This document shows, in pieces, positions 27,615-29,582 of a stretch of 42,672 nt of DNA (position 1 is its first letter; every line of letters starts with the position of its first letter). Source of the stretch: Polyangiaceae bacterium (GTDB lineage Bacteria; Myxococcota_A; Polyangia; Polyangiales; Polyangiaceae); NCBI GenBank assembly GCA_029261965.1, contig JAJDAH010000357.1, forward strand, positions 1-42,672, given 5' to 3'. Made by a program: the position numbers and the translations under genes. The notes under the pieces are model-generated. The model ran no database searches, was not told the origin of the DNA, and was given only the letters and a program-made list of their open reading frames with translations.

Positions 27615-27687
27615 TGGAGGTCCTGGGAATCGAACCCAGCGATGCCTGCGTGTCGCACAGGCGGCTTCGCCAGCTGCCTCGACCTCC
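27615..27687 (-). tRNA. tRNA-Val (GAC), non-canonical anticodon loop (C33)
   Basis: Acceptor GGAGGTC/GACCTCC 7/7. T-arm CTGGG-TTCGATT-CCCAG. Anticodon stem CCTGT/GCAGG with loop GCGACAC, i.e. G32 and C33 in place of the near-universal U33. Confidence 0.6.
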
Positions 27688-27734
27688 GTTGGCAGCACCG
27701 TCTGTCCCACCTGTGGCGGGCGACCGTGCTGTGG

Positions 27735-27806
27735 TCCTGCCGCATGGAGTCGAACCAAGTCAGGATGCTTATCAGGCGTCCCAGGTGAACCGCACACTCC
27801 GGCAGG
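27735..27806 (-). tRNA. tRNA-Ile (GAU)
   Basis: Acceptor CCTGCCG/CGGCAGG 7/7. Canonical Ile loop CTGATAA. The anticodon stem and T-stem each have one mismatch. A 3 bp D-stem. Confidence 0.6.
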
Positions 27807-27828
27807 ATCTTCTTCGTGCTTTTTTCTG

Positions 27829-27900
27829 AGACGCGCGACGGAATCGAACCGTCCCTCACCGGTGTTGCAAACCGAACCGCTCGTGCCAGAGCTGCGCGTC
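27829..27900 (-). tRNA. tRNA-Cys (GCA)
   Basis: Acceptor GACGCGC/GCGCGTC 7/7. Discriminator U, which is the Cys identity element. Loop TTGCAAC. T-arm GACGG-TTCGATT-CCGTC. Confidence 0.75.
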
Positions 27901-27914
27901 GTGTGACGACCTGC

Positions 27915-27988
27915 TGGTGGAACCGTGGGGAGTCGCACCCCAACGCGCATACTTGCAAGGTACGGCGCCGAACCTCTCGGACGATCCC
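27915..27988 (-). tRNA. tRNA-Ala (UGC) with encoded CCA, atypical D-arm
   Basis: Acceptor GGGATCG/CGGTTCC includes the G3-U70 wobble that identifies Ala. A73 and CCA are encoded. Anticodon loop CTTGCAA. T-loop TGCGACT. The D-arm is CCGA-GAGGT-TCGG with a 3 nt connector. Confidence 0.55.
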
Positions 27989-28015
27989 TTTGGGGGAAAA
28001 TGGCTGAGAGAGCAG

Positions 28016-28084
28016 CGGGCCTGGCAGGAATCGAACCTGCGCGACGCGGTTTTGGAGACCGCTCGGCTCCCAGAGCTCAAACCC
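28016..28084 (-). tRNA. tRNA-Trp (CCA), compressed D/anticodon junction
   Basis: Acceptor GGGTTTG/CAGGCCC pairs through two G-U wobbles. Anticodon arm GCGGT-CTCCAAA-ACCGC matches the E. coli Trp loop. T-arm GCAGG-TTCGATT-CCTGC. The D-stem overlaps the anticodon stem by 2 nt. Confidence 0.5.
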
Positions 28085-28287
28085 AAAGCTGACGGGCAAG
28101 CGACGCGCTTCATGCGCGCCGCCCACCCTTGGGGCCAGCAGAAACTTCCGTGTTCCGCGCCACAAAAACTGCACACCAGAAAAAGAAAAGATCGAAGCCC
28201 ACACGAGCCGCCTGAGAGCGATTCGCCCGGCCCTCCCCCAAGCGGGGGCCGGGGGAAGCGCGGAGCGTCGTATGGGGCTGAGATCGA

Positions 28288-28361
28288 TGCGAACGGAAGG
28301 AGTCGAACCTGCACTGTGCCGGGTTTGAACCGGTTGCCTCTGCCGATTGGGCTACGTTCGC
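28288..28361 (-). tRNA. tRNA with CAA anticodon (Leu-UUG reading) but class-I architecture
   Basis: Acceptor GCGAACG/CGTTCGC 7/7, discriminator A. Anticodon stem ACCGG/CCGGC with loop TTCAAAC. A short 5 nt variable loop, which is unusual for Leu. T-arm GCAGG-TTCGACT-CCTTC. Confidence 0.5.
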
Positions 28362-28395
28362 TTGCTGCTCTCCAACGCTCGGTGCGCGGGAGCTG

Positions 28396-28468
28396 TGCGA
28401 GGCGCGAGAATCGAACTCACCTTGCGCTGTTTGTGGGACAGCTGTCGTCGCCAGACGACACGCCTCGC
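28396..28468 (-). tRNA. tRNA-Val (CAC), C33 anticodon loop
   Basis: Acceptor GCGAGGC/GCCTCGC 7/7. D-stem GTCG/CGAC. Anticodon stem GCTGT/ACAGC with loop CCCACAA. T-arm GTGAG-TTCGATT-CTCGC. Discriminator A. Confidence 0.7.
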
Positions 28469-28482
28469 TCTTCGATTGTCTG

Positions 28483-28557
28483 TCGGGGAGGCAGGATTCG
28501 AACCTGCGGTCTCTCGGTCCCGAACCGAGCGCTCTTGCCAGACTAAGCCACACCCCG
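28483..28557 (-). tRNA. tRNA-Pro (CGG)
   Basis: Acceptor CGGGGTG/CTCCCCG 6/7. Anticodon arm CTCGG-TTCGGGA-CCGAG. T-arm GCAGG-TTCGAAT-CCTGC. D-stem GCTT/GAGC. Confidence 0.8.
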
Positions 28558-28572
28558 GGAAACTTCGTTGGA

Positions 28573-28641
28573 ACGGGGACCAGGGTTCGAACCTGGATTG
28601 CGAGGGTCAAAGCCTCGAGTCCTGCCATTGGACGATCCCCG
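28573..28641 (-). tRNA. tRNA-Gln (UUG), short (about 70 nt)
   Basis: Acceptor CGGGGAT/GTCCCCG with a G-U wobble. Anticodon arm CGAGG-CTTTGAC-CCTCG. T-arm CCAGG-TTCGAAC-CCTGG. Only one nucleotide separates the acceptor and D-stem. Confidence 0.65.
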
Positions 28642-28682
28642 TGAGTTTCACATCTCGCGCCGCATGGCAGTCGGGGCGAGAG

Positions 28683-28751
28683 TCGCGACGCGTGGAGTCG
28701 AACCACGTCGGCCGGGTTTATGGGACCCGCCTCCCGCCGAGGGTCGTCGCG
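28683..28751 (-). tRNA. tRNA-Met-like (CAU), truncated D-arm, C33
   Basis: Acceptor CGCGACG/CGTCGCG 7/7. Anticodon arm CGGGT-CCCATAA-ACCCG, with three G-C pairs at the loop end as in initiator-like tRNAs. T-arm CGTGG-TTCGACT-CCACG. The D-arm is only CCTC-GGCGG-GAGG. Confidence 0.5.
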
Positions 28752-28756
28752 AAGAG

Positions 28757-28840
28757 TGGTTGCAGGGGCCGGAATTGAACCGGCTCGGCCGAGGGCATCG
28801 GATAATGAGTCCGACGAGCGTTCGTTGCTCCATCCCTGCG
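28757..28840 (-). tRNA. CAU-anticodon tRNA with a class-II-type 13 nt variable arm and encoded CCA
   Basis: Acceptor CGCAGGG/CCCTGCA with a C1-A72 mismatch. Anticodon arm TCGGA-CTCATTA-TCCGA. Variable region TGCCCTCGGCCGA. T-arm GCCGG-TTCAATT-CCGGC. A73 and CCA are encoded. Confidence 0.45.
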
Positions 28841-28841
28841 G

Positions 28842-28914
28842 TGTCCTCGGCACGATTCGAACGTGCACTCCTCGGCTTCGGAGGCCGATGCTCTATCCGT
28901 TGAGCCACGAGGAC
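28842..28914 (-). tRNA. tRNA-Arg (CCG)
   Basis: Fully canonical. Acceptor GTCCTCG/CGAGGAC. D-arm GCTC-AACGGATA-GAGC. Anticodon arm TCGGC-CTCCGAA-GCCGA. T-arm GCACG-TTCGAAT-CGTGC. Discriminator A. Confidence 0.9.
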
Positions 28915-28938
28915 ATGGTGCGGTCGCGAAGACCGCGG

Positions 28939-29010
28939 CTCCCCCGGAAGGATTCGAACCTCCATTACTGGTTTCGTAGACCAGAGCCCTGTCCATTGGA
29001 CGACGAGGGA
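28939..29010 (-). tRNA. tRNA-Arg (ACG)
   Basis: Acceptor TCCCTCG/CGGGGGA with one G-U wobble. Anticodon arm CTGGT-CTACGAA-ACCAG. T-arm GGAGG-TTCGAAT-CCTTC. Discriminator G. Confidence 0.85.
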
Positions 29011-29022
29011 ATGGGCGTGCGG

Positions 29023-29097
29023 GCGTCCCGTACAGGAGTCGAACCTGCATGACGAGGTTGAGGGCCTCGGATCCTGAGCCGTTAGATGAACGGGACG
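29023..29097 (-). tRNA. tRNA-Glu (CUC), C33
   Basis: Acceptor CGTCCCG/CGGGACG 7/7. A Glu-type D-arm (TTCATCTAACGGCTCAGGATC). Anticodon arm CGAGG-CCCTCAA-CCTCG. T-arm GCAGG-TTCGACT-CCTGT. Confidence 0.7.
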
Positions 29098-29144
29098 AAA
29101 TCTCGCGCGGCGCGCCGAAGCTCCGTCGCCGGATCCGACCGCGG

Positions 29145-29218
29145 CACCCCCGGTAAGATTCGAACTCACACTGGCACCGGGTAGAAGCCGGCCGCTCTTT
29201 CCGTTGAGCTACGGGGGC
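29145..29218 (-). tRNA. tRNA-Arg (UCU)
   Basis: Acceptor GCCCCCG/CGGGGGT. D-arm GCTC-AACGGAAA-GAGC. Anticodon arm GCCGG-CTTCTAC-CCGGT. T-arm GTGAG-TTCGAAT-CTTAC. Confidence 0.8.
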
Positions 29219-29247
29219 GGAAGGTGGGCGTGGAAAAGCCGCGCTCG

Positions 29248-29319
29248 TAGACTCGGAGAGGGTCGAACTCTCGCCTCACCGGTTAAAAGCCGGGTGCGCT
29301 GCCATTACGCCACGAGTCT
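29248..29319 (-). tRNA. tRNA-Lys (UUU)
   Basis: Acceptor AGACTCG/CGAGTCT 7/7. Canonical Lys loop CTTTTAA. T-arm GAGAG-TTCGACC-CTCTC. Discriminator A. Confidence 0.8.
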
Positions 29320-29323
29320 CCAA

Positions 29324-29408
29324 TGGTGGAGCGCCTGGGAATCGAACCCAGCAAGTCCGATGCGGACGACCGGTTTACAGCCGGCCTTGCATTCCATTGC
29401 AGCACTCC
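29324..29408 (-). tRNA. tRNA-Tyr (GUA), class II, CCA encoded
   Basis: Acceptor GGAGTGC/GCGCTCC with one G-U. Loop CTGTAAA. Long variable arm GTCCG-CAT-CGGAC. T-arm CTGGG-TTCGATT-CCCAG. A73 and CCA encoded. Confidence 0.85.
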
Positions 29409-29422
29409 GTCGATGAAGCGGT

Positions 29423-29496
29423 TGGAGCGATCGGCGGGAATCGAACCCGCATATCGAGGCTGGCGCCCTCGGGTACTACCTTTGTACGACGATCGC
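29423..29496 (-). tRNA. tRNA-Gly (GCC), atypical positions 32-33 (GC), CCA encoded
   Basis: Acceptor GCGATCG/CGATCGC 7/7. D-arm GTAC-AAAGGTA-GTAC. Anticodon arm CGAGG-GCGCCAG-CCTCG. T-arm GCGGG-TTCGATT-CCCGC. U73 and CCA encoded. Confidence 0.7.
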
Positions 29497-29511
29497 GTTG
29501 GTCGGAGCCGG

Positions 29512-29582
29512 AGCGGGCGGAGGGAGTTGCACCCCCATGGCCTGGGTGGAAACCAGGAGTTCTGCTCTTGAAGTACGCCCGC
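29512..29582 (-). tRNA. tRNA-Gly (UCC), T-loop TGCAACT
   Basis: Acceptor GCGGGCG/CGCCCGC 7/7. Anticodon arm CCTGG-TTTCCAC-CCAGG. T-stem GGGGG/CCCTC with a non-canonical T-loop. Confidence 0.7.

What the first reader, a model, noticed from the sequence alone, without database searches (positions are those of the whole stretch)
27615..29582. Many array members carry non-canonical features
Several independently folded members deviate from near-universal tRNA rules while keeping perfect acceptor and T arms. Val-GAC, Val-CAC, Met-CAU (28683-28751), Glu-CUC and Gly-GCC have C at position 33 (loops GCGACAC, CCCACAA, CCCATAA, CCCTCAA, GCGCCAG). The Met-like tRNA has a 13 nt D-arm. The second CAU tRNA (28757-28840) has a class-II-length variable arm plus a C1-A72 mismatch and encoded CCA. 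The Trp tRNA has overlapping D and anticodon stems. Ala carries the G3-U70 identity pair but an odd D-arm. Phe, Thr, Glu and Trp rely on two G-U wobbles each in the acceptor stem. CCA is encoded in only 5 of ~29. This looks like either a decaying or diverging accessory copy set, or tRNAs with altered decoding or identity properties.
Basis: partly seen in the sequence, partly recalled or inferred. Interest (0 to 1): 0.7.

Follow-up and report, generated by a model that had tools for sequence, protein, structure and literature searches.

The report
Mobile spare-tRNA array with rule-breaking members
This is a horizontally spread "long tRNA array" in a myxobacterial genome whose ~31 spare tRNA genes really do break near-universal tRNA rules (such as C instead of U at position 33), and sister arrays show that these oddities are inherited and maintained, not signs of decay.

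Summary
All units lie on the minus strand. ARAGORN finds 30 tRNAs: 28 packed into 27376-30441, plus two Ser tRNAs at 24576-24764. Five have C33, and their 7-nt loops offer no alternative U33. The 13-nt D-arm Met, the long-variable-arm CAU tRNA with C1xA72 and A73-CCA, G3:U70 Ala and the G-U-rich acceptors are all real. Eleven of 30 fail Rfam's tRNA threshold.

The region is a member of a known kind: an L-array (tRNA array unit). It carries the hallmark embedded HNH endonuclease, whose homologues sit inside arrays on Acidiphilium, Mycobacterium and Nostoc plasmids and next to tRNA clusters in large phages.

Nine related Myxococcota arrays share the oddities, with many compensatory stem changes. 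The Glu-CUC loop CCCTCAA recurs in four arrays and the Val-CAC loop CCCACAA in two. The odd Ala and Met D-arms recur in the closest array. Across 298 array tRNAs, position 33 is U (270) or C (28), never A or G.

So this is a diverged but maintained accessory tRNA set with a few decayed members, not a decaying one. Cognate identity elements are mostly kept. A backup role during tRNA damage or translational stress is inferred, not shown. A YrlA-like tRNA mimic upstream of the SPFH gene was found in passing.

The parts
27376..30441 (-). Main block of the tRNA array: 28 ARAGORN tRNA genes in 3,066 bp (about 9 per kb). Transcription order: Lys-CUU, Gln-CUG, Asn, Thr-CGU, Glu-UUC, Phe, His, Asp, Gly-UCC, Gly-GCC, Tyr, Lys-UUU, Arg-UCU, Glu-CUC, Arg-ACG, Arg-CCG, CAU(long V), Met-CAU, Gln-UUG, Pro-CGG, Val-CAC, Leu-CAA, Trp, Ala, Cys, (Ile-like), Val-GAC, Leu-CAG, Leu-GAG.
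27614..27687 (-). tRNA-Val(GAC) with C33 (loop GCGACAC) and G8. C33 is shared with Val-GAC of L025 and of the Acidiphilium plasmid array L013.
28395..28468 (-). tRNA-Val(CAC) with C33 (loop CCCACAA). L025 has the identical loop; L022 and L003 have U33.
28682..28751 (-). 70-nt tRNA-Met(CAU) with C33 (loop CCCATAA) and a 13-nt D-arm. The short D-arm is conserved in L022-L025. Relative to L022, pair 31:39 changed G-C to U-A and position 33 changed U to C.
29021..29097 (-). tRNA-Glu(CUC) with C33 (loop CCCTCAA). The identical loop occurs in L001, L025 and L024, although anticodon-stem and T-stem pairs differ on both sides.
29423..29496 (-). tRNA-Gly(GCC) with C33 (loop GCGCCAG) and encoded CCA. 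L001 Gly-GCC also has C33 (CCGCCAC), with a fully different but still paired anticodon stem.
28757..28840 (-). Second CAU tRNA: C1xA72, A73-CCA, 13-nt variable region with a small hairpin, U37, D-loop without GG. No homologue was found in the sister arrays.
28015..28084 (-). 70-nt tRNA-Trp with a minimal D-arm and two G-U pairs in the acceptor stem. The same odd D region occurs in L022. Rfam tRNA score is 32.4 bits, just above threshold.
27915..27988 (-). tRNA-Ala(UGC) with G3:U70, an aberrant D-arm (TCCGAGAGGTTCGGCGC), T-loop TGCGACT (G55) and encoded CCA. L022 has the identical D-arm, with compensatory changes in the anticodon and T stems.
29675..29748 (-). tRNA-His with encoded G-1, C73 and U37 (loop TTGTGTC). 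L022 has the same loop.
28288..28361 (-). 74-nt tRNA-Leu(CAA) that lacks the long variable arm but keeps a Leu-type D-arm and A73.
27732..27806 (-). Ile(GAU)-like unit missed by ARAGORN and Rfam. It has a 7-bp acceptor stem and ACCA, but mismatches in the anticodon and T stems and no D-arm, and its MFE fold is not a cloverleaf. Probably a decayed member.
   Evidence: homologous acceptor in L003 Ile
27150..27227 (-). tRNA-like element with a closed acceptor stem. Order: anticodon arm, T-arm, acceptor 3' strand, GAA loop, acceptor 5' strand, D-arm 5' part. Joined the other way round, it is a canonical tRNA-Pro(UGG). The topology is YrlA-like, and an element of this kind lies upstream of the SPFH gene in every related locus.
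25544..26656 (-). SPFH/Band_7 protein gene (370 aa, counted from ATG 26656). It lies next to or inside the array in all related Myxococcota loci.
24856..25389 (-). HNH endonuclease gene, the hallmark protein gene of L-arrays. Homologues are embedded in arrays of other phyla and lie next to tRNA clusters in large phages.
24684..24769 (-). tRNA-Ser(CGA) with a tRNA-Sec-like 8/4 fold: 8-bp acceptor, 6-bp D stem, long V arm, 4-bp T stem, U73.
24576..24666 (-). tRNA-Ser(GCU), also with an 8-bp acceptor and 4-bp T stem in ARAGORN's fold. T-loop is ATCGAGA; CCA is encoded.

Best explanation
The finding sits in the core of a roughly 6-kb long tRNA array (L-array, or tRNA array unit). This is a horizontally transferred accessory operon of about 31 tRNA genes covering all 20 amino acids. 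It has an embedded HNH endonuclease gene and, in this Myxococcota lineage, an SPFH gene and a YrlA-like tRNA mimic.

The non-canonical features are real. For the most part they are inherited traits of this array lineage and are kept by selection. Acceptor, anticodon and T stems, the T-loop and the cognate identity elements are tightly maintained through compensatory changes. The D-arm, position 8 and anticodon-loop positions 32, 33, 37 and 38 are free to differ from the canon, and position 33 is restricted to U or C.

Most likely working (inferred):
- The array is transcribed as one or a few polycistrons.
- The transcripts are cut by RNase P and 3' nucleases and completed by the CCA-adding enzyme (most genes encode only C or CC after N73).
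- The tRNAs are charged by the host synthetases with the cognate amino acids.
- They serve as a second, sequence-divergent tRNA pool that keeps translation going when the housekeeping pool is damaged or depleted by tRNase toxins, phage-defence nucleases or translational stress.
- The divergent D-arm and anticodon-loop positions are where such a pool can escape sequence-specific nucleases, at some cost in decoding efficiency.

A minority of units are decaying: the Ile-like unit and possibly the long-V CAU tRNA.

Shown here: the anatomy, membership of the array kind, and conservation and covariation. Inferred: expression, charging and the backup or escape role.
For: Array kind:
- 28 tRNAs lie in 3,066 bp.
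- tblastn homologues of the HNH gene lie inside arrays of 25-37 tRNAs on Acidiphilium, Mycolicibacterium, M. intracellulare and Nostoc plasmids, and next to tRNA clusters in Myxococcus phage Mx1 and virus Rctr197k.
- Published L-arrays and M. avium arrays carry a conserved HNH gene (PMC8421152; PMC12803027).

Mobility:
- Only the HNH and Band_7 genes are shared between the window and the related Myxococcota loci; the flanks differ.

Maintenance:
- Window tRNAs against same-anticodon tRNAs of L001-L004 and L007: 533 identical stem pairs, 320 changed on both sides, 47 wobble-compatible, about 30 broken.
- Across 10 arrays, 96.8% of 2,924 stem cells pair, and 296 of 578 pair positions covary.
- T54, T55, C56, A58 and 53:61 are 97-99.7% canonical.

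Inherited oddities:
- The Glu-CUC loop CCCTCAA occurs in the window, L001, L025 and L024.
- The Val-CAC loop CCCACAA occurs in the window and L025.
- Val-GAC has C33 in the window, L025 and L013.
- Gly-GCC has C33 in the window and L001.
- The odd Ala D-arm, the short Met D-arm and His U37 are identical in L022.
- C33 also occurs in otherwise high-scoring tRNAs: L001 Glu-CUC 60.7 bits, window Gly-GCC 50.6 bits.

Position 33:
- It is U in 270 and C in 28 of 298 array tRNAs, never A or G. ARAGORN still detects 85-86% of the same tRNAs when position 33 is set to A or G.

Identity:
- Discriminators and marks such as G3:U70 and G-1/C73 follow the cognate rules.
- Anticodons are mostly G/C-starting, fitting a 64% GC host.

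RNA-damage context:
- Sister loci carry RtcB, Ro60/TROVE, RlaP, PIN and PemK genes beside the array.
- In Anabaena, 23 of 26 array tRNAs are expressed and aminoacylated under translational stress and are co-regulated with rtcB (PMC8421152).
- Anticodon-loop variation as nuclease escape has been proposed for phage tRNAs (PMC10264068).
Against: - There are no expression, processing or charging data for this locus, and the promoter scan was uninformative.
- The housekeeping tRNAs of this genome are not in the window. It is therefore untested whether the array is supernumerary and whether it differs from the housekeeping tRNAs at nuclease sites.
- U33 and C33 toggle between very close arrays: Leu-UAG is CCTAGAC in L023 and CTTAGAC in L024, and Glu-CUC has U33 in L022, the array closest to the window. 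This fits near-neutral tolerance of C33 as well as selection for it.
- In Anabaena, the only tRNAs seen to be cleaved under stress were array tRNAs.
- K. lactis gamma-toxin cuts a C33 anticodon stem-loop as well as a U33 one.
- Detection bias: ARAGORN reports only units with intact stems, so decayed members are under-counted.
- Same-anticodon tRNAs from different arrays are not proven orthologues.
Confidence: 0.55

Rival explanations
1. Decaying set. The array is a horizontally acquired, unexpressed relic, and the deviations are neutral mutations accumulating in pseudogenes.
For: - 11 of 30 units are below Rfam's tRNA threshold, and 5 give no hit at all.
- An Ile-like unit has broken stems.
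- Array arrangements differ by insertions and deletions, for example the L023 Arg/Glu chimera.
- Three of 26 Anabaena array genes are pseudogenes.
- U/C33 toggles between close arrays.
Against: - 96.8% of stem cells pair, with massive two-sided covariation.
- The T-loop is nearly invariant.
- Non-U33 is always C.
- The same odd loops and D-arms persist across arrays whose stems have turned over.
- Identity elements are retained.
- Almost no unoccupied sequence lies between units.
Confidence: 0.12
2. Relaxed constraint only. The tRNAs work, but because they are a rarely used spare set, selection on decoding efficiency is weak. C33, U37, non-U8 and short D-arms would then be tolerated drift, with no adaptive meaning such as nuclease escape.
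For: - U/C toggling at position 33 between near-identical arrays.
- Deviations concentrate at tertiary-interaction and loop positions, not in helices.
- C33 does not impair recognition by at least one anticodon nuclease.
- Anabaena array tRNAs are themselves cleaved.
Against: - The identical 7-nt loop CCCTCAA is kept in four arrays, and CCCACAA in two, while the adjoining stems changed.
- C33 recurs in the same isoacceptors (Val, Glu-CUC, Leu-GAG) across phyla and in a phage.
- C33 is also seen in an AT-rich Nostoc array, so it is not simply GC pressure.
Confidence: 0.2
3. Altered decoding or identity. Some members are charged with a non-cognate amino acid or read codons differently (recoding or deliberate mistranslation). 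Candidates are the long-variable-arm CAU tRNA (possibly taken by LeuRS or SerRS) and the 8/4 Ser tRNAs.
For: - The CAU tRNA at 28757-28840 combines a class-II-like V arm, A73, C1xA72 and U37.
- 8/4 allo-tRNAs can insert Ser at non-Ser codons (PMC5389517).
- The Ser-CGA unit passes the tRNA-Sec model.
Against: - Both 8/4 tRNAs here carry Ser anticodons, as do the published (8/4) tRNA-Ser of phage and proteobacterial clusters.
- 24 of 29 discriminators, and the special marks, match cognate rules.
- The CAU oddity has no homologue in sister arrays, so it may be a one-off degenerate.
Confidence: 0.08
4. Phage-derived codon supplement. The array is a remnant of a large phage's tRNA cluster kept for codon-usage compensation.
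For: - The best phage hits of the HNH gene are large phages with tRNA clusters, including Myxococcus phage Mx1 and virus Rctr197k.
- Rctr197k tRNAs have 5 of 11 with C33.
- The anticodon set favours G/C-ending codons.
Against: - No phage structural or replication genes are present in the window: the flanking genes examined are chromosomal-type regulators and enzymes, and the six proteins beside the array gave no such PHROG match.
- The viral-contig scan with the SPFH protein found nothing.
- The same module sits in different chromosomal contexts in about 10 MAG contigs.
Confidence: 0.05

Closest known systems
L-arrays / tRNA array units (Tran et al. 2016, PMC4758250; Morgado & Vicente 2018, PMC5966550; Santamaria-Gomez et al. 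2021, PMC8421152; Yano et al. 2026, PMC12803027)
   Same: - At least 20 densely packed, non-periodic tRNA genes covering about 20 amino acids.
- An embedded or adjacent HNH endonuclease gene of the same family (tblastn).
- Different flanks in different genomes.
- RNA-repair genes (rtcB) in the neighbourhood of sister loci.
[quoted passage not shown]
   Different: - The host lineage is Myxococcota, which I did not find among the described arrays (no 'Myxococc' in the array papers).
- An SPFH/Band_7 gene and a YrlA-like RNA are constantly linked.
- The recurrent C33 is not mentioned in any array paper of the searchable library.
- Expression and stress induction are untested here.
Phage tRNA clusters with anticodon-loop variants proposed to evade anticodon nucleases (van den Berg et al. 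2023, PMC10264068; Azam et al. 2024, PMC11555353)
   Same: - Redundant tRNAs whose anticodon loops differ from the canonical sequence.
- The HNH homologue and C33 tRNAs also occur in large phages (L020, L012).
   Different: - Here the array is in a bacterial chromosomal context.
- Host tRNAs and host nucleases are unknown, so no specific escape mutation can be assigned.
- Position 33 was not discussed in that work.
(8/4) tRNA-Ser, allo-tRNAs and 'polycistrons of irregular tRNAs' (Mukai et al. 2017, PMC5389517)
   Same: - Ser tRNAs with an 8-bp acceptor, a 4-bp T stem, a long D stem and V arm, and U73, found inside tRNA gene clusters.
- The window's Ser-CGA passes Rfam's tRNA-Sec model in the way their candidates did.
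   Different: - Here the anticodons are ordinary Ser anticodons (CGA, GCU), so no recoding is implied.
- The other irregular members of this array have a 7/5 fold.
Eukaryotic cytoplasmic initiator tRNA-Met (C33) and Candida tRNA-Ser(CAG) (G33)
   Same: These are the textbook natural exceptions to U33 (PMC5041475). One of the window's C33 tRNAs is a CAU tRNA. Phage Rctr197k has an initiator-like CAU tRNA with the same CCCATAA loop and three G-C pairs.
   Different: Here C33 is found mainly in bacterial-type elongators (Val, Glu, Gly, Leu, Thr, Asn). There is no relation by descent.
YrlA bacterial Y RNA (Chen et al. 2014, PMC4201824; Rfam RF02553)
   Same: - The element upstream of the SPFH gene has the YrlA order: T-arm, closed 7-bp acceptor-like stem, D-arm.
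- Sister loci encode Ro60/TROVE and RtcB.
- Rfam YrlA hits of 34-42 bits occur at the same relative position in six loci.
   Different: - All scores are below the gathering score (69). The window copy scores 17 bits and keeps a full anticodon arm.
- No Ro60 gene was found in the window.

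Membership tests
L-array / tRNA array unit | At least 20 tRNA genes at a density of at least 2 per kb (definition in PMC4758250) | tested here: met
   28 ARAGORN tRNAs in 27376-30441 (3,066 bp, about 9 per kb), plus 2 Ser tRNAs 2.6 kb downstream.
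L-array / tRNA array unit | Non-periodic set of different isoacceptors covering nearly all amino acids | tested here: met
   29 different anticodons. 19 amino acids are covered by intact units, and Ile only by a degenerate unit.
L-array / tRNA array unit | Conserved HNH (homing) endonuclease gene linked to or embedded in the array | tested here: met
   The 24856-25389 protein matches HNH_5/HNH and phrog_16726. tblastn homologues lie inside arrays L013, L015, L018 and L019 and beside phage tRNA clusters L012 and L020.
L-array / tRNA array unit | Supernumerary to a dispersed housekeeping tRNA set | not testable with these tools
   Only one 42.7-kb contig is available. The array lacks several needed anticodons (for example Ala-GGC, Thr-GGU, intact Ile-GAU), which implies another set exists. 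That is inference.
L-array / tRNA array unit | Patchy distribution and horizontal transfer (different genomic contexts) | tested here: met
   Only the HNH and Band_7 genes are shared with loci L001-L011; flanking genes differ. Gene content around L022-L025 also differs.
L-array / tRNA array unit | Members are expressed and aminoacylated (shown for Anabaena under translational stress) | not testable with these tools
   No transcript data. The promoter scan found nothing above background.
Nuclease-evading accessory tRNAs | The loop or arm sequence differs from the host's housekeeping isoacceptor at a known tRNase recognition or cleavage site | not testable with these tools
   Host housekeeping tRNAs and host or competitor tRNases are unknown. 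PIN and PemK genes occur beside the sister array L022.
(8/4) tRNA-Ser / allo-tRNA | 12-bp acceptor branch split 8/4, a long D stem, a long V arm, G73 or U73 | tested here: met
   The Rfam tRNA-Sec alignment of 24684-24769 shows an 8-bp acceptor, 6-bp D stem, V arm and 4-bp T stem, at 54.1 bits against a threshold of 47. U73 is read from the sequence.
Bacterial initiator tRNA-fMet (for the CAU tRNA at 28757-28840) | C1xA72 mismatch | tested here: met
   In frame 28757-28840, C1 and A72 are unpaired and are followed by A73-CCA.
Bacterial initiator tRNA-fMet (for the CAU tRNA at 28757-28840) | Three consecutive G-C pairs at 29-31/39-41, and a standard class-I body | tested here: not met
   The stem is TCGGA/TCCGA, with two G-C pairs and then A31-U39. 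The variable region is 13 nt, position 37 is U, and the D-loop has no GG.
YrlA Y RNA (RF02553) | tRNA-like domain in the order T-arm, closed acceptor-like stem, D-arm | tested here: met
   Scan of all loci. Acceptor-like hairpins covary across 12 loci. The window copy aligns to YrlA model positions 23-86.
YrlA Y RNA (RF02553) | Reaches Rfam's gathering score (69 bits) | tested here: not met
   17.4 bits in the window. 34-42 bits (E from 6e-6 to 1e-3) in L001, L003, L004, L005, L008 and L011. No hit at gathering threshold.
YrlA Y RNA (RF02553) | Encoded next to a Ro60/TROVE gene | tested here: inconclusive
   TROVE genes lie in L022 and L025 and in phage Mx1. None of the window ORFs scanned matches TROVE; the VWA protein at 22129-23280 matches only generic VWA.

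The most novel reading that the evidence does not exclude
The most novel reading has two parts.

First, C33, together with U37, non-U8, the mini D-arms and the 8/4 Ser fold, is positively maintained as a 'toxin-proof' design. On this reading the Myxococcota module (tRNA array, HNH, YrlA-like RNA, SPFH, and in relatives Ro60, RtcB and RlaP) is one integrated system that keeps translation running and repairs RNA when tRNA-targeting toxins or phage-defence nucleases destroy the housekeeping pool.

Second, its Val, Glu, Gly and Leu members would then be natural bacterial elongator tRNAs that decode without the U-turn uridine.
Probability: 0.25. Interest if true: 0.7.

Novelty: new member of a known kind. 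Interest (0 to 1): 0.45.

Why it matters
L-arrays are widespread, but what they are for is still poorly understood. This locus, with nine related Myxococcota arrays, gives a comparative series. In it, specific violations of near-universal tRNA rules can be seen to persist while the surrounding helices turn over. The violations include C33 in Val, Glu-CUC, Gly-GCC and Leu-GAG tRNAs, U37, mini D-arms and 8/4 Ser tRNAs.

This makes two open questions directly testable:
- How much of the tRNA 'canon' is really needed for elongation in bacteria.
- Whether accessory arrays are nuclease-resistant backup pools.

The constant linkage with an SPFH gene and a YrlA-like tRNA mimic, and with RtcB and Ro60 in relatives, ties tRNA arrays to RNA repair and quality control in a new phylum.

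If the features are merely tolerated drift, the result is still useful. It would serve as a natural mutational scan of which tRNA positions are dispensable.

Tried and rejected
- Exact-protein look-ups of window genes to identify the source contig found nothing. The organism was instead inferred from related MAG loci.
- Nucleotide searches of the array against phage and plasmid collections gave only single-tRNA matches.
- The viral-contig scan with the SPFH protein gave no relatives. The metagenome scan gave only short contigs.
- The promoter and terminator scan was not above background.
- PADLOC gave no defence-system match for the SPFH protein or its neighbours. The HNH protein gave only generic HNH matches.
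- I first read 27100-27260 as tRNA debris, then as a circularly permuted tRNA-Pro gene. I dropped both as the best reading once the same closed-acceptor topology turned up upstream of the SPFH gene in every locus, with sub-threshold YrlA hits. Full YrlA membership is not established.
- I considered that C33 might be an ARAGORN artefact or a detection bias. The loops contain no usable T, and ARAGORN still finds 85-86% of the tRNAs with A33 or G33.
- I considered GC pressure as the cause of U33 to C33. It does not explain the C33 tRNAs in the AT-rich Nostoc array.
- Some HNH homologues have no tRNAs nearby: Acaryochloris pREB6, Methylobacterium, Sphingomonas and Persicobacter. The HNH family is therefore not exclusive to arrays.

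Full report
**What is there.** ARAGORN finds 30 tRNA genes in the window, all on the minus strand. 28 are packed into 27376-30441, and two Ser tRNAs lie at 24576-24764. Between the two groups lie an SPFH/Band_7 gene and an HNH endonuclease gene (24856-25389). The true start of the SPFH gene is the ATG at 26656, giving 370 aa. By eye, an Ile(GAU)-like unit that ARAGORN missed lies at 27732-27806. The window is 62-68% GC. The surrounding genes examined are chromosomal in type: a sigma-54/FHA activator, a Ser/Thr kinase, a histidine kinase, and PEGA, VWA and aminotransferase proteins. An identical SPFH protein is on record from NCBI on a contig of 42,672 bp. The closest relatives are Myxococcota MAGs.

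**Check of the observation.**
- None of these loops holds a T that could be position 33. In three of them the only neighbouring T is the stem-closing T31. Restoring U33 would therefore need a 9-nt loop and a different anticodon.
- U33 is described as almost invariant, the known exceptions being eukaryotic initiators (C33) and Candida tRNA-Ser (G33) (PMC5041475). With a background of 1% or less, 5 of 30 has P of about 1e-5 (my arithmetic).
- The 70-nt Met tRNA has a 13-nt D-arm.
It has unpaired C1/A72, A73-CCA, a 13-nt variable region with a small hairpin and a 5-bp T stem. It also has U37 and a D-loop without GG.
- Ala has G3:U70 and an aberrant D-arm. Phe, Thr, Glu-UUC and Trp each have two G-U pairs in the acceptor stem.
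- Corrections: CCA is encoded in 7 ARAGORN tRNAs, plus the second CAU tRNA and the Ile-like unit. That is about 9 of 32, not 5 of about 29. Nearly all the others keep C (11) or CC (10) after the discriminator. The Trp tRNA has a minimal D-arm, but a non-overlapping fold exists.
His has U37. Ala and Gly-UCC have G55. About a third of members lack U8. Leu-CAA is 74 nt and has no long variable arm.
- Only 19 of 30 units reach an Rfam gathering score, and five give no Rfam hit at all.

- L-arrays are described as horizontally spread, supernumerary arrays with a conserved HNH homing-endonuclease gene and with RNA-processing genes such as rtcB nearby (PMC8421152).
- The window's HNH protein finds homologues by tblastn on many plasmids and large phages.
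- Those I fetched lie inside arrays of 37 (Acidiphilium), 27 (Mycolicibacterium), 28 (M. intracellulare) and 25 (Nostoc HK-01) tRNAs. Others lie next to tRNA genes in Myxococcus phage Mx1 and virus Rctr197k.
- Some HNH homologues have no tRNAs nearby, so the protein family is not exclusive to arrays.

**Relatives of this particular array.** A genome-collection scan with the SPFH protein found Myxococcota MAG loci, with arrays of 23, 20, 10 and 3 tRNAs upstream of the SPFH homologue in L001-L004.
- Only the HNH and SPFH genes are shared with the window, not the flanks. This fits a mobile module.
- Through the protein database I fetched four more loci, L022-L025, with 16-26 tRNAs each. They carry HNH and SPFH genes and, in addition, RtcB, Ro60/TROVE, RlaP, RbfA, PIN and PemK genes.
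- Gene order is partly conserved, for example Lys-CUU, Gln-CUG, Asn ... Arg-UCU, Arg-ACG, Arg-CCG, Met.

**Decay or maintenance?**
- Window tRNAs were compared with same-anticodon tRNAs of L001-L004 and L007 over the 17 core stem pairs. The counts were 533 identical, 320 changed on both sides but still paired, 47 one-sided wobble-compatible and about 30 broken. Several of the broken ones are parsing artefacts of 8/4 or 4-bp T-stem folds.
- Across ten arrays, 96.8% of 2,924 stem cells are standard pairs, and 296 of 578 pair positions covary on both sides.
- T54, T55, C56, A58 and the 53:61 pair are 97-99.7% canonical. Position 33 is 90.6% U, and position 8 only about 74% U.
- The oddities are shared. 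The Glu-CUC loop CCCTCAA occurs in the window, L001, L025 and L024 (the L024 gene is mis-called by ARAGORN), although anticodon-stem and T-stem pairs differ on both sides.
- The Val-CAC loop CCCACAA occurs in the window and L025. Val-GAC has C33 in the window, L025 and the Acidiphilium plasmid. Gly-GCC has C33 in the window and L001. Leu-GAG has C33 in L022-L024 and in phage Rctr197k.
- L022, the array closest to the window, has the identical aberrant Ala D-arm (with compensatory changes in the anticodon and T stems), the same short Met D-arm, the same odd Trp D region and the same His U37 loop.
- C33 also sits in otherwise high-scoring tRNAs: L001 Glu-CUC at 60.7 bits and window Gly-GCC at 50.6 bits.
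- Among 298 array tRNAs, the 28 non-U33 cases are all C. ARAGORN still detects 85-86% of the same tRNAs when position 33 is set to A or G, so this is not a detection artefact.
- Caveats: ARAGORN reports only units with intact stems. Same-anticodon genes are not proven orthologues. At least the Ile-like unit has decayed.

**Identity.** Discriminator bases and special identity marks follow the cognate bacterial rules for most members (the rules are from established knowledge of E. coli tRNA identity).
- A73: Ala, Leu, Val, Lys, Phe, Pro, Tyr and Met.
- G73: Asn, Asp and Trp.
- U73: Cys and Gly.
- C73 plus an encoded G-1: His.
- G3:U70: Ala.
- Exceptions: U73 in both Gln tRNAs and both Ser tRNAs, and A73 in Glu-UUC.
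- The anticodon set is dominated by C- and G-starting anticodons, which suits a GC-rich host.

This argues against a general change of identity. The long-V CAU tRNA remains a candidate oddity. It fails the initiator test (no third G-C pair, long V region) and has no homologue in the sister arrays.

**How it most likely works.**
- Shown: a maintained, mobile, near-complete spare tRNA set of the L-array kind.
- Inferred: polycistronic transcription, RNase P and 3'-end processing with CCA completion, cognate charging, and use when the housekeeping pool fails.
- The precedent is Anabaena. There, 23 of 26 array tRNAs are induced and aminoacylated under translational stress, are co-regulated with rtcB and aid survival.
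- The RtcB, Ro60, RlaP, PIN and PemK genes beside the sister arrays put this lineage in an RNA-damage context.
- Variation concentrated in the D-arm, position 8 and loop positions 32, 33, 37 and 38 is what a nuclease-escape pool would show (idea from PMC10264068; 'putative antidefense').
- That step is weak, for four reasons. U and C toggle at position 33 between near-identical arrays (L023 against L024; the window against L022). Gamma-toxin cuts C33 substrates normally. In Anabaena the array tRNAs themselves were seen to be cleaved. The host's tRNAs and nucleases are unknown here. 'Tolerated drift in a rarely used spare set' is therefore the main rival.

**Noticed on the way.**
- Both Ser tRNAs have an 8/4 acceptor/T fold. 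Ser-CGA passes Rfam's tRNA-Sec model at 54.1 bits. It matches the (8/4) tRNA-Ser reported in phage and proteobacterial tRNA clusters (PMC5389517).
- Between Leu-GAG and the SPFH gene (27150-27227) lies a tRNA-like element whose acceptor stem is closed by a GAA loop. Re-joined, it is a canonical tRNA-Pro(UGG).
- The same topology occurs 400-550 nt upstream of the SPFH gene in every related locus, including those without tRNA arrays: a T-arm, a closed 7-bp acceptor-like stem that covaries between loci, then a D-arm.
- It gives sub-threshold Rfam YrlA hits: 34-42 bits in six loci and 17 bits in the window, against a gathering score of 69.
- This is the architecture of bacterial Y RNAs that partner Ro60 (PMC4201824). 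Membership is not established.

**Verdict.** The locus is a new (Myxococcota, SPFH- and YrlA-linked) member of the known L-array kind. The 'decaying' reading is largely rejected, and 'diverging accessory set' is supported. 'Altered identity' is unsupported except possibly for one unit. The recurrent, isoacceptor-specific C33 appears not to have been described for arrays in the searchable literature. It is the most interesting specific result. Its adaptive meaning remains open.

Noticed in passing
window 27135-27240 (-); L001 ~9480-9600; L002 ~9510-9620; L003 5181-5294; L004 1216-1323; L005 ~9500-9610; L008 1530-1639; L011 ~100-200; L022 ~9400-9560; L023 ~7530-7650; L024 ~9500-9620; L025 ~9590-9720: A tRNA-like element with a closed acceptor stem lies 400-550 nt upstream of the SPFH gene in every related locus, even those without tRNA arrays. 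Its order is T-arm, 7-bp acceptor-like hairpin that covaries between loci, then D-arm. It gives sub-threshold Rfam YrlA hits (34-42 bits; 17 in the window). The window copy re-joins into a canonical tRNA-Pro(UGG).
   Followed up: partly
window 24576-24769 (-): Both Ser tRNAs have an 8-bp acceptor and 4-bp T-stem (8/4) fold. Ser-CGA passes Rfam's tRNA-Sec model (54.1 bits) but carries a Ser anticodon and U73, like the published (8/4) tRNA-Ser of tRNA gene clusters.
   Followed up: partly
window 28288-28361 (-); L012 9905-9978 and 10806-10880; L020 9904-9976; L001 7893-7969; L003 3820-3896: Leu tRNAs of class-I length (73-77 nt, no long variable arm) with a Leu-type D-arm and A73. In phages Mx1 and Rctr197k, and in L001 and L003, they sit directly next to the HNH gene.
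   Followed up: no
L022 7385-9010, 11418-12402; L023 2826-4333; L024 4756-6263, 12126-14826; L025 3611-5197, 11214-12629: Sister arrays are flanked by RNA repair and quality-control genes (Ro60/TROVE, RtcB, RlaP, RbfA) and by PIN and PemK toxin genes. None of these was found among the window ORFs scanned.
   Followed up: partly
L023 7334-7417 vs L024 9309-9392: Near-identical arrays differ at position 33 of Leu-UAG (CCTAGAC vs CTTAGAC). This is a live U/C polymorphism at a 'universal' position.
   Followed up: no
L024 8420-8491; L023 ~6600-6670: ARAGORN calls a 4-base anticodon 'ctag' tRNA in L024, but the gene is really a Glu-CUC tRNA with the CCCTCAA (C33) loop. In L023 the same region is a chimera of an Arg tRNA 5' part and the Glu 3' part. 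This shows recombination or deletion between array members.
   Followed up: partly
window, all array tRNAs: After the discriminator, 11 genes encode C, 10 encode CC and 7 encode CCA; only 2 encode none. The L022-L025 arrays show the same partial-CCA habit, whereas L001, L003 and L013 encode full CCA in most genes.
   Followed up: no
window 30482-30521 (-), 30177-30285 (-), 28085-28287 (-): A hairpin followed by a T-run lies just upstream of the first tRNA. Two larger tRNA-free gaps inside the array also contain GC-rich hairpins followed by T-runs. These may split the array into several transcription units.
   Followed up: no
L002 8424-8997: ARAGORN reports a permuted tmRNA with an implausible tag peptide overlapping array tRNAs. 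It is probably a false call caused by adjacent tRNA halves.
   Followed up: no
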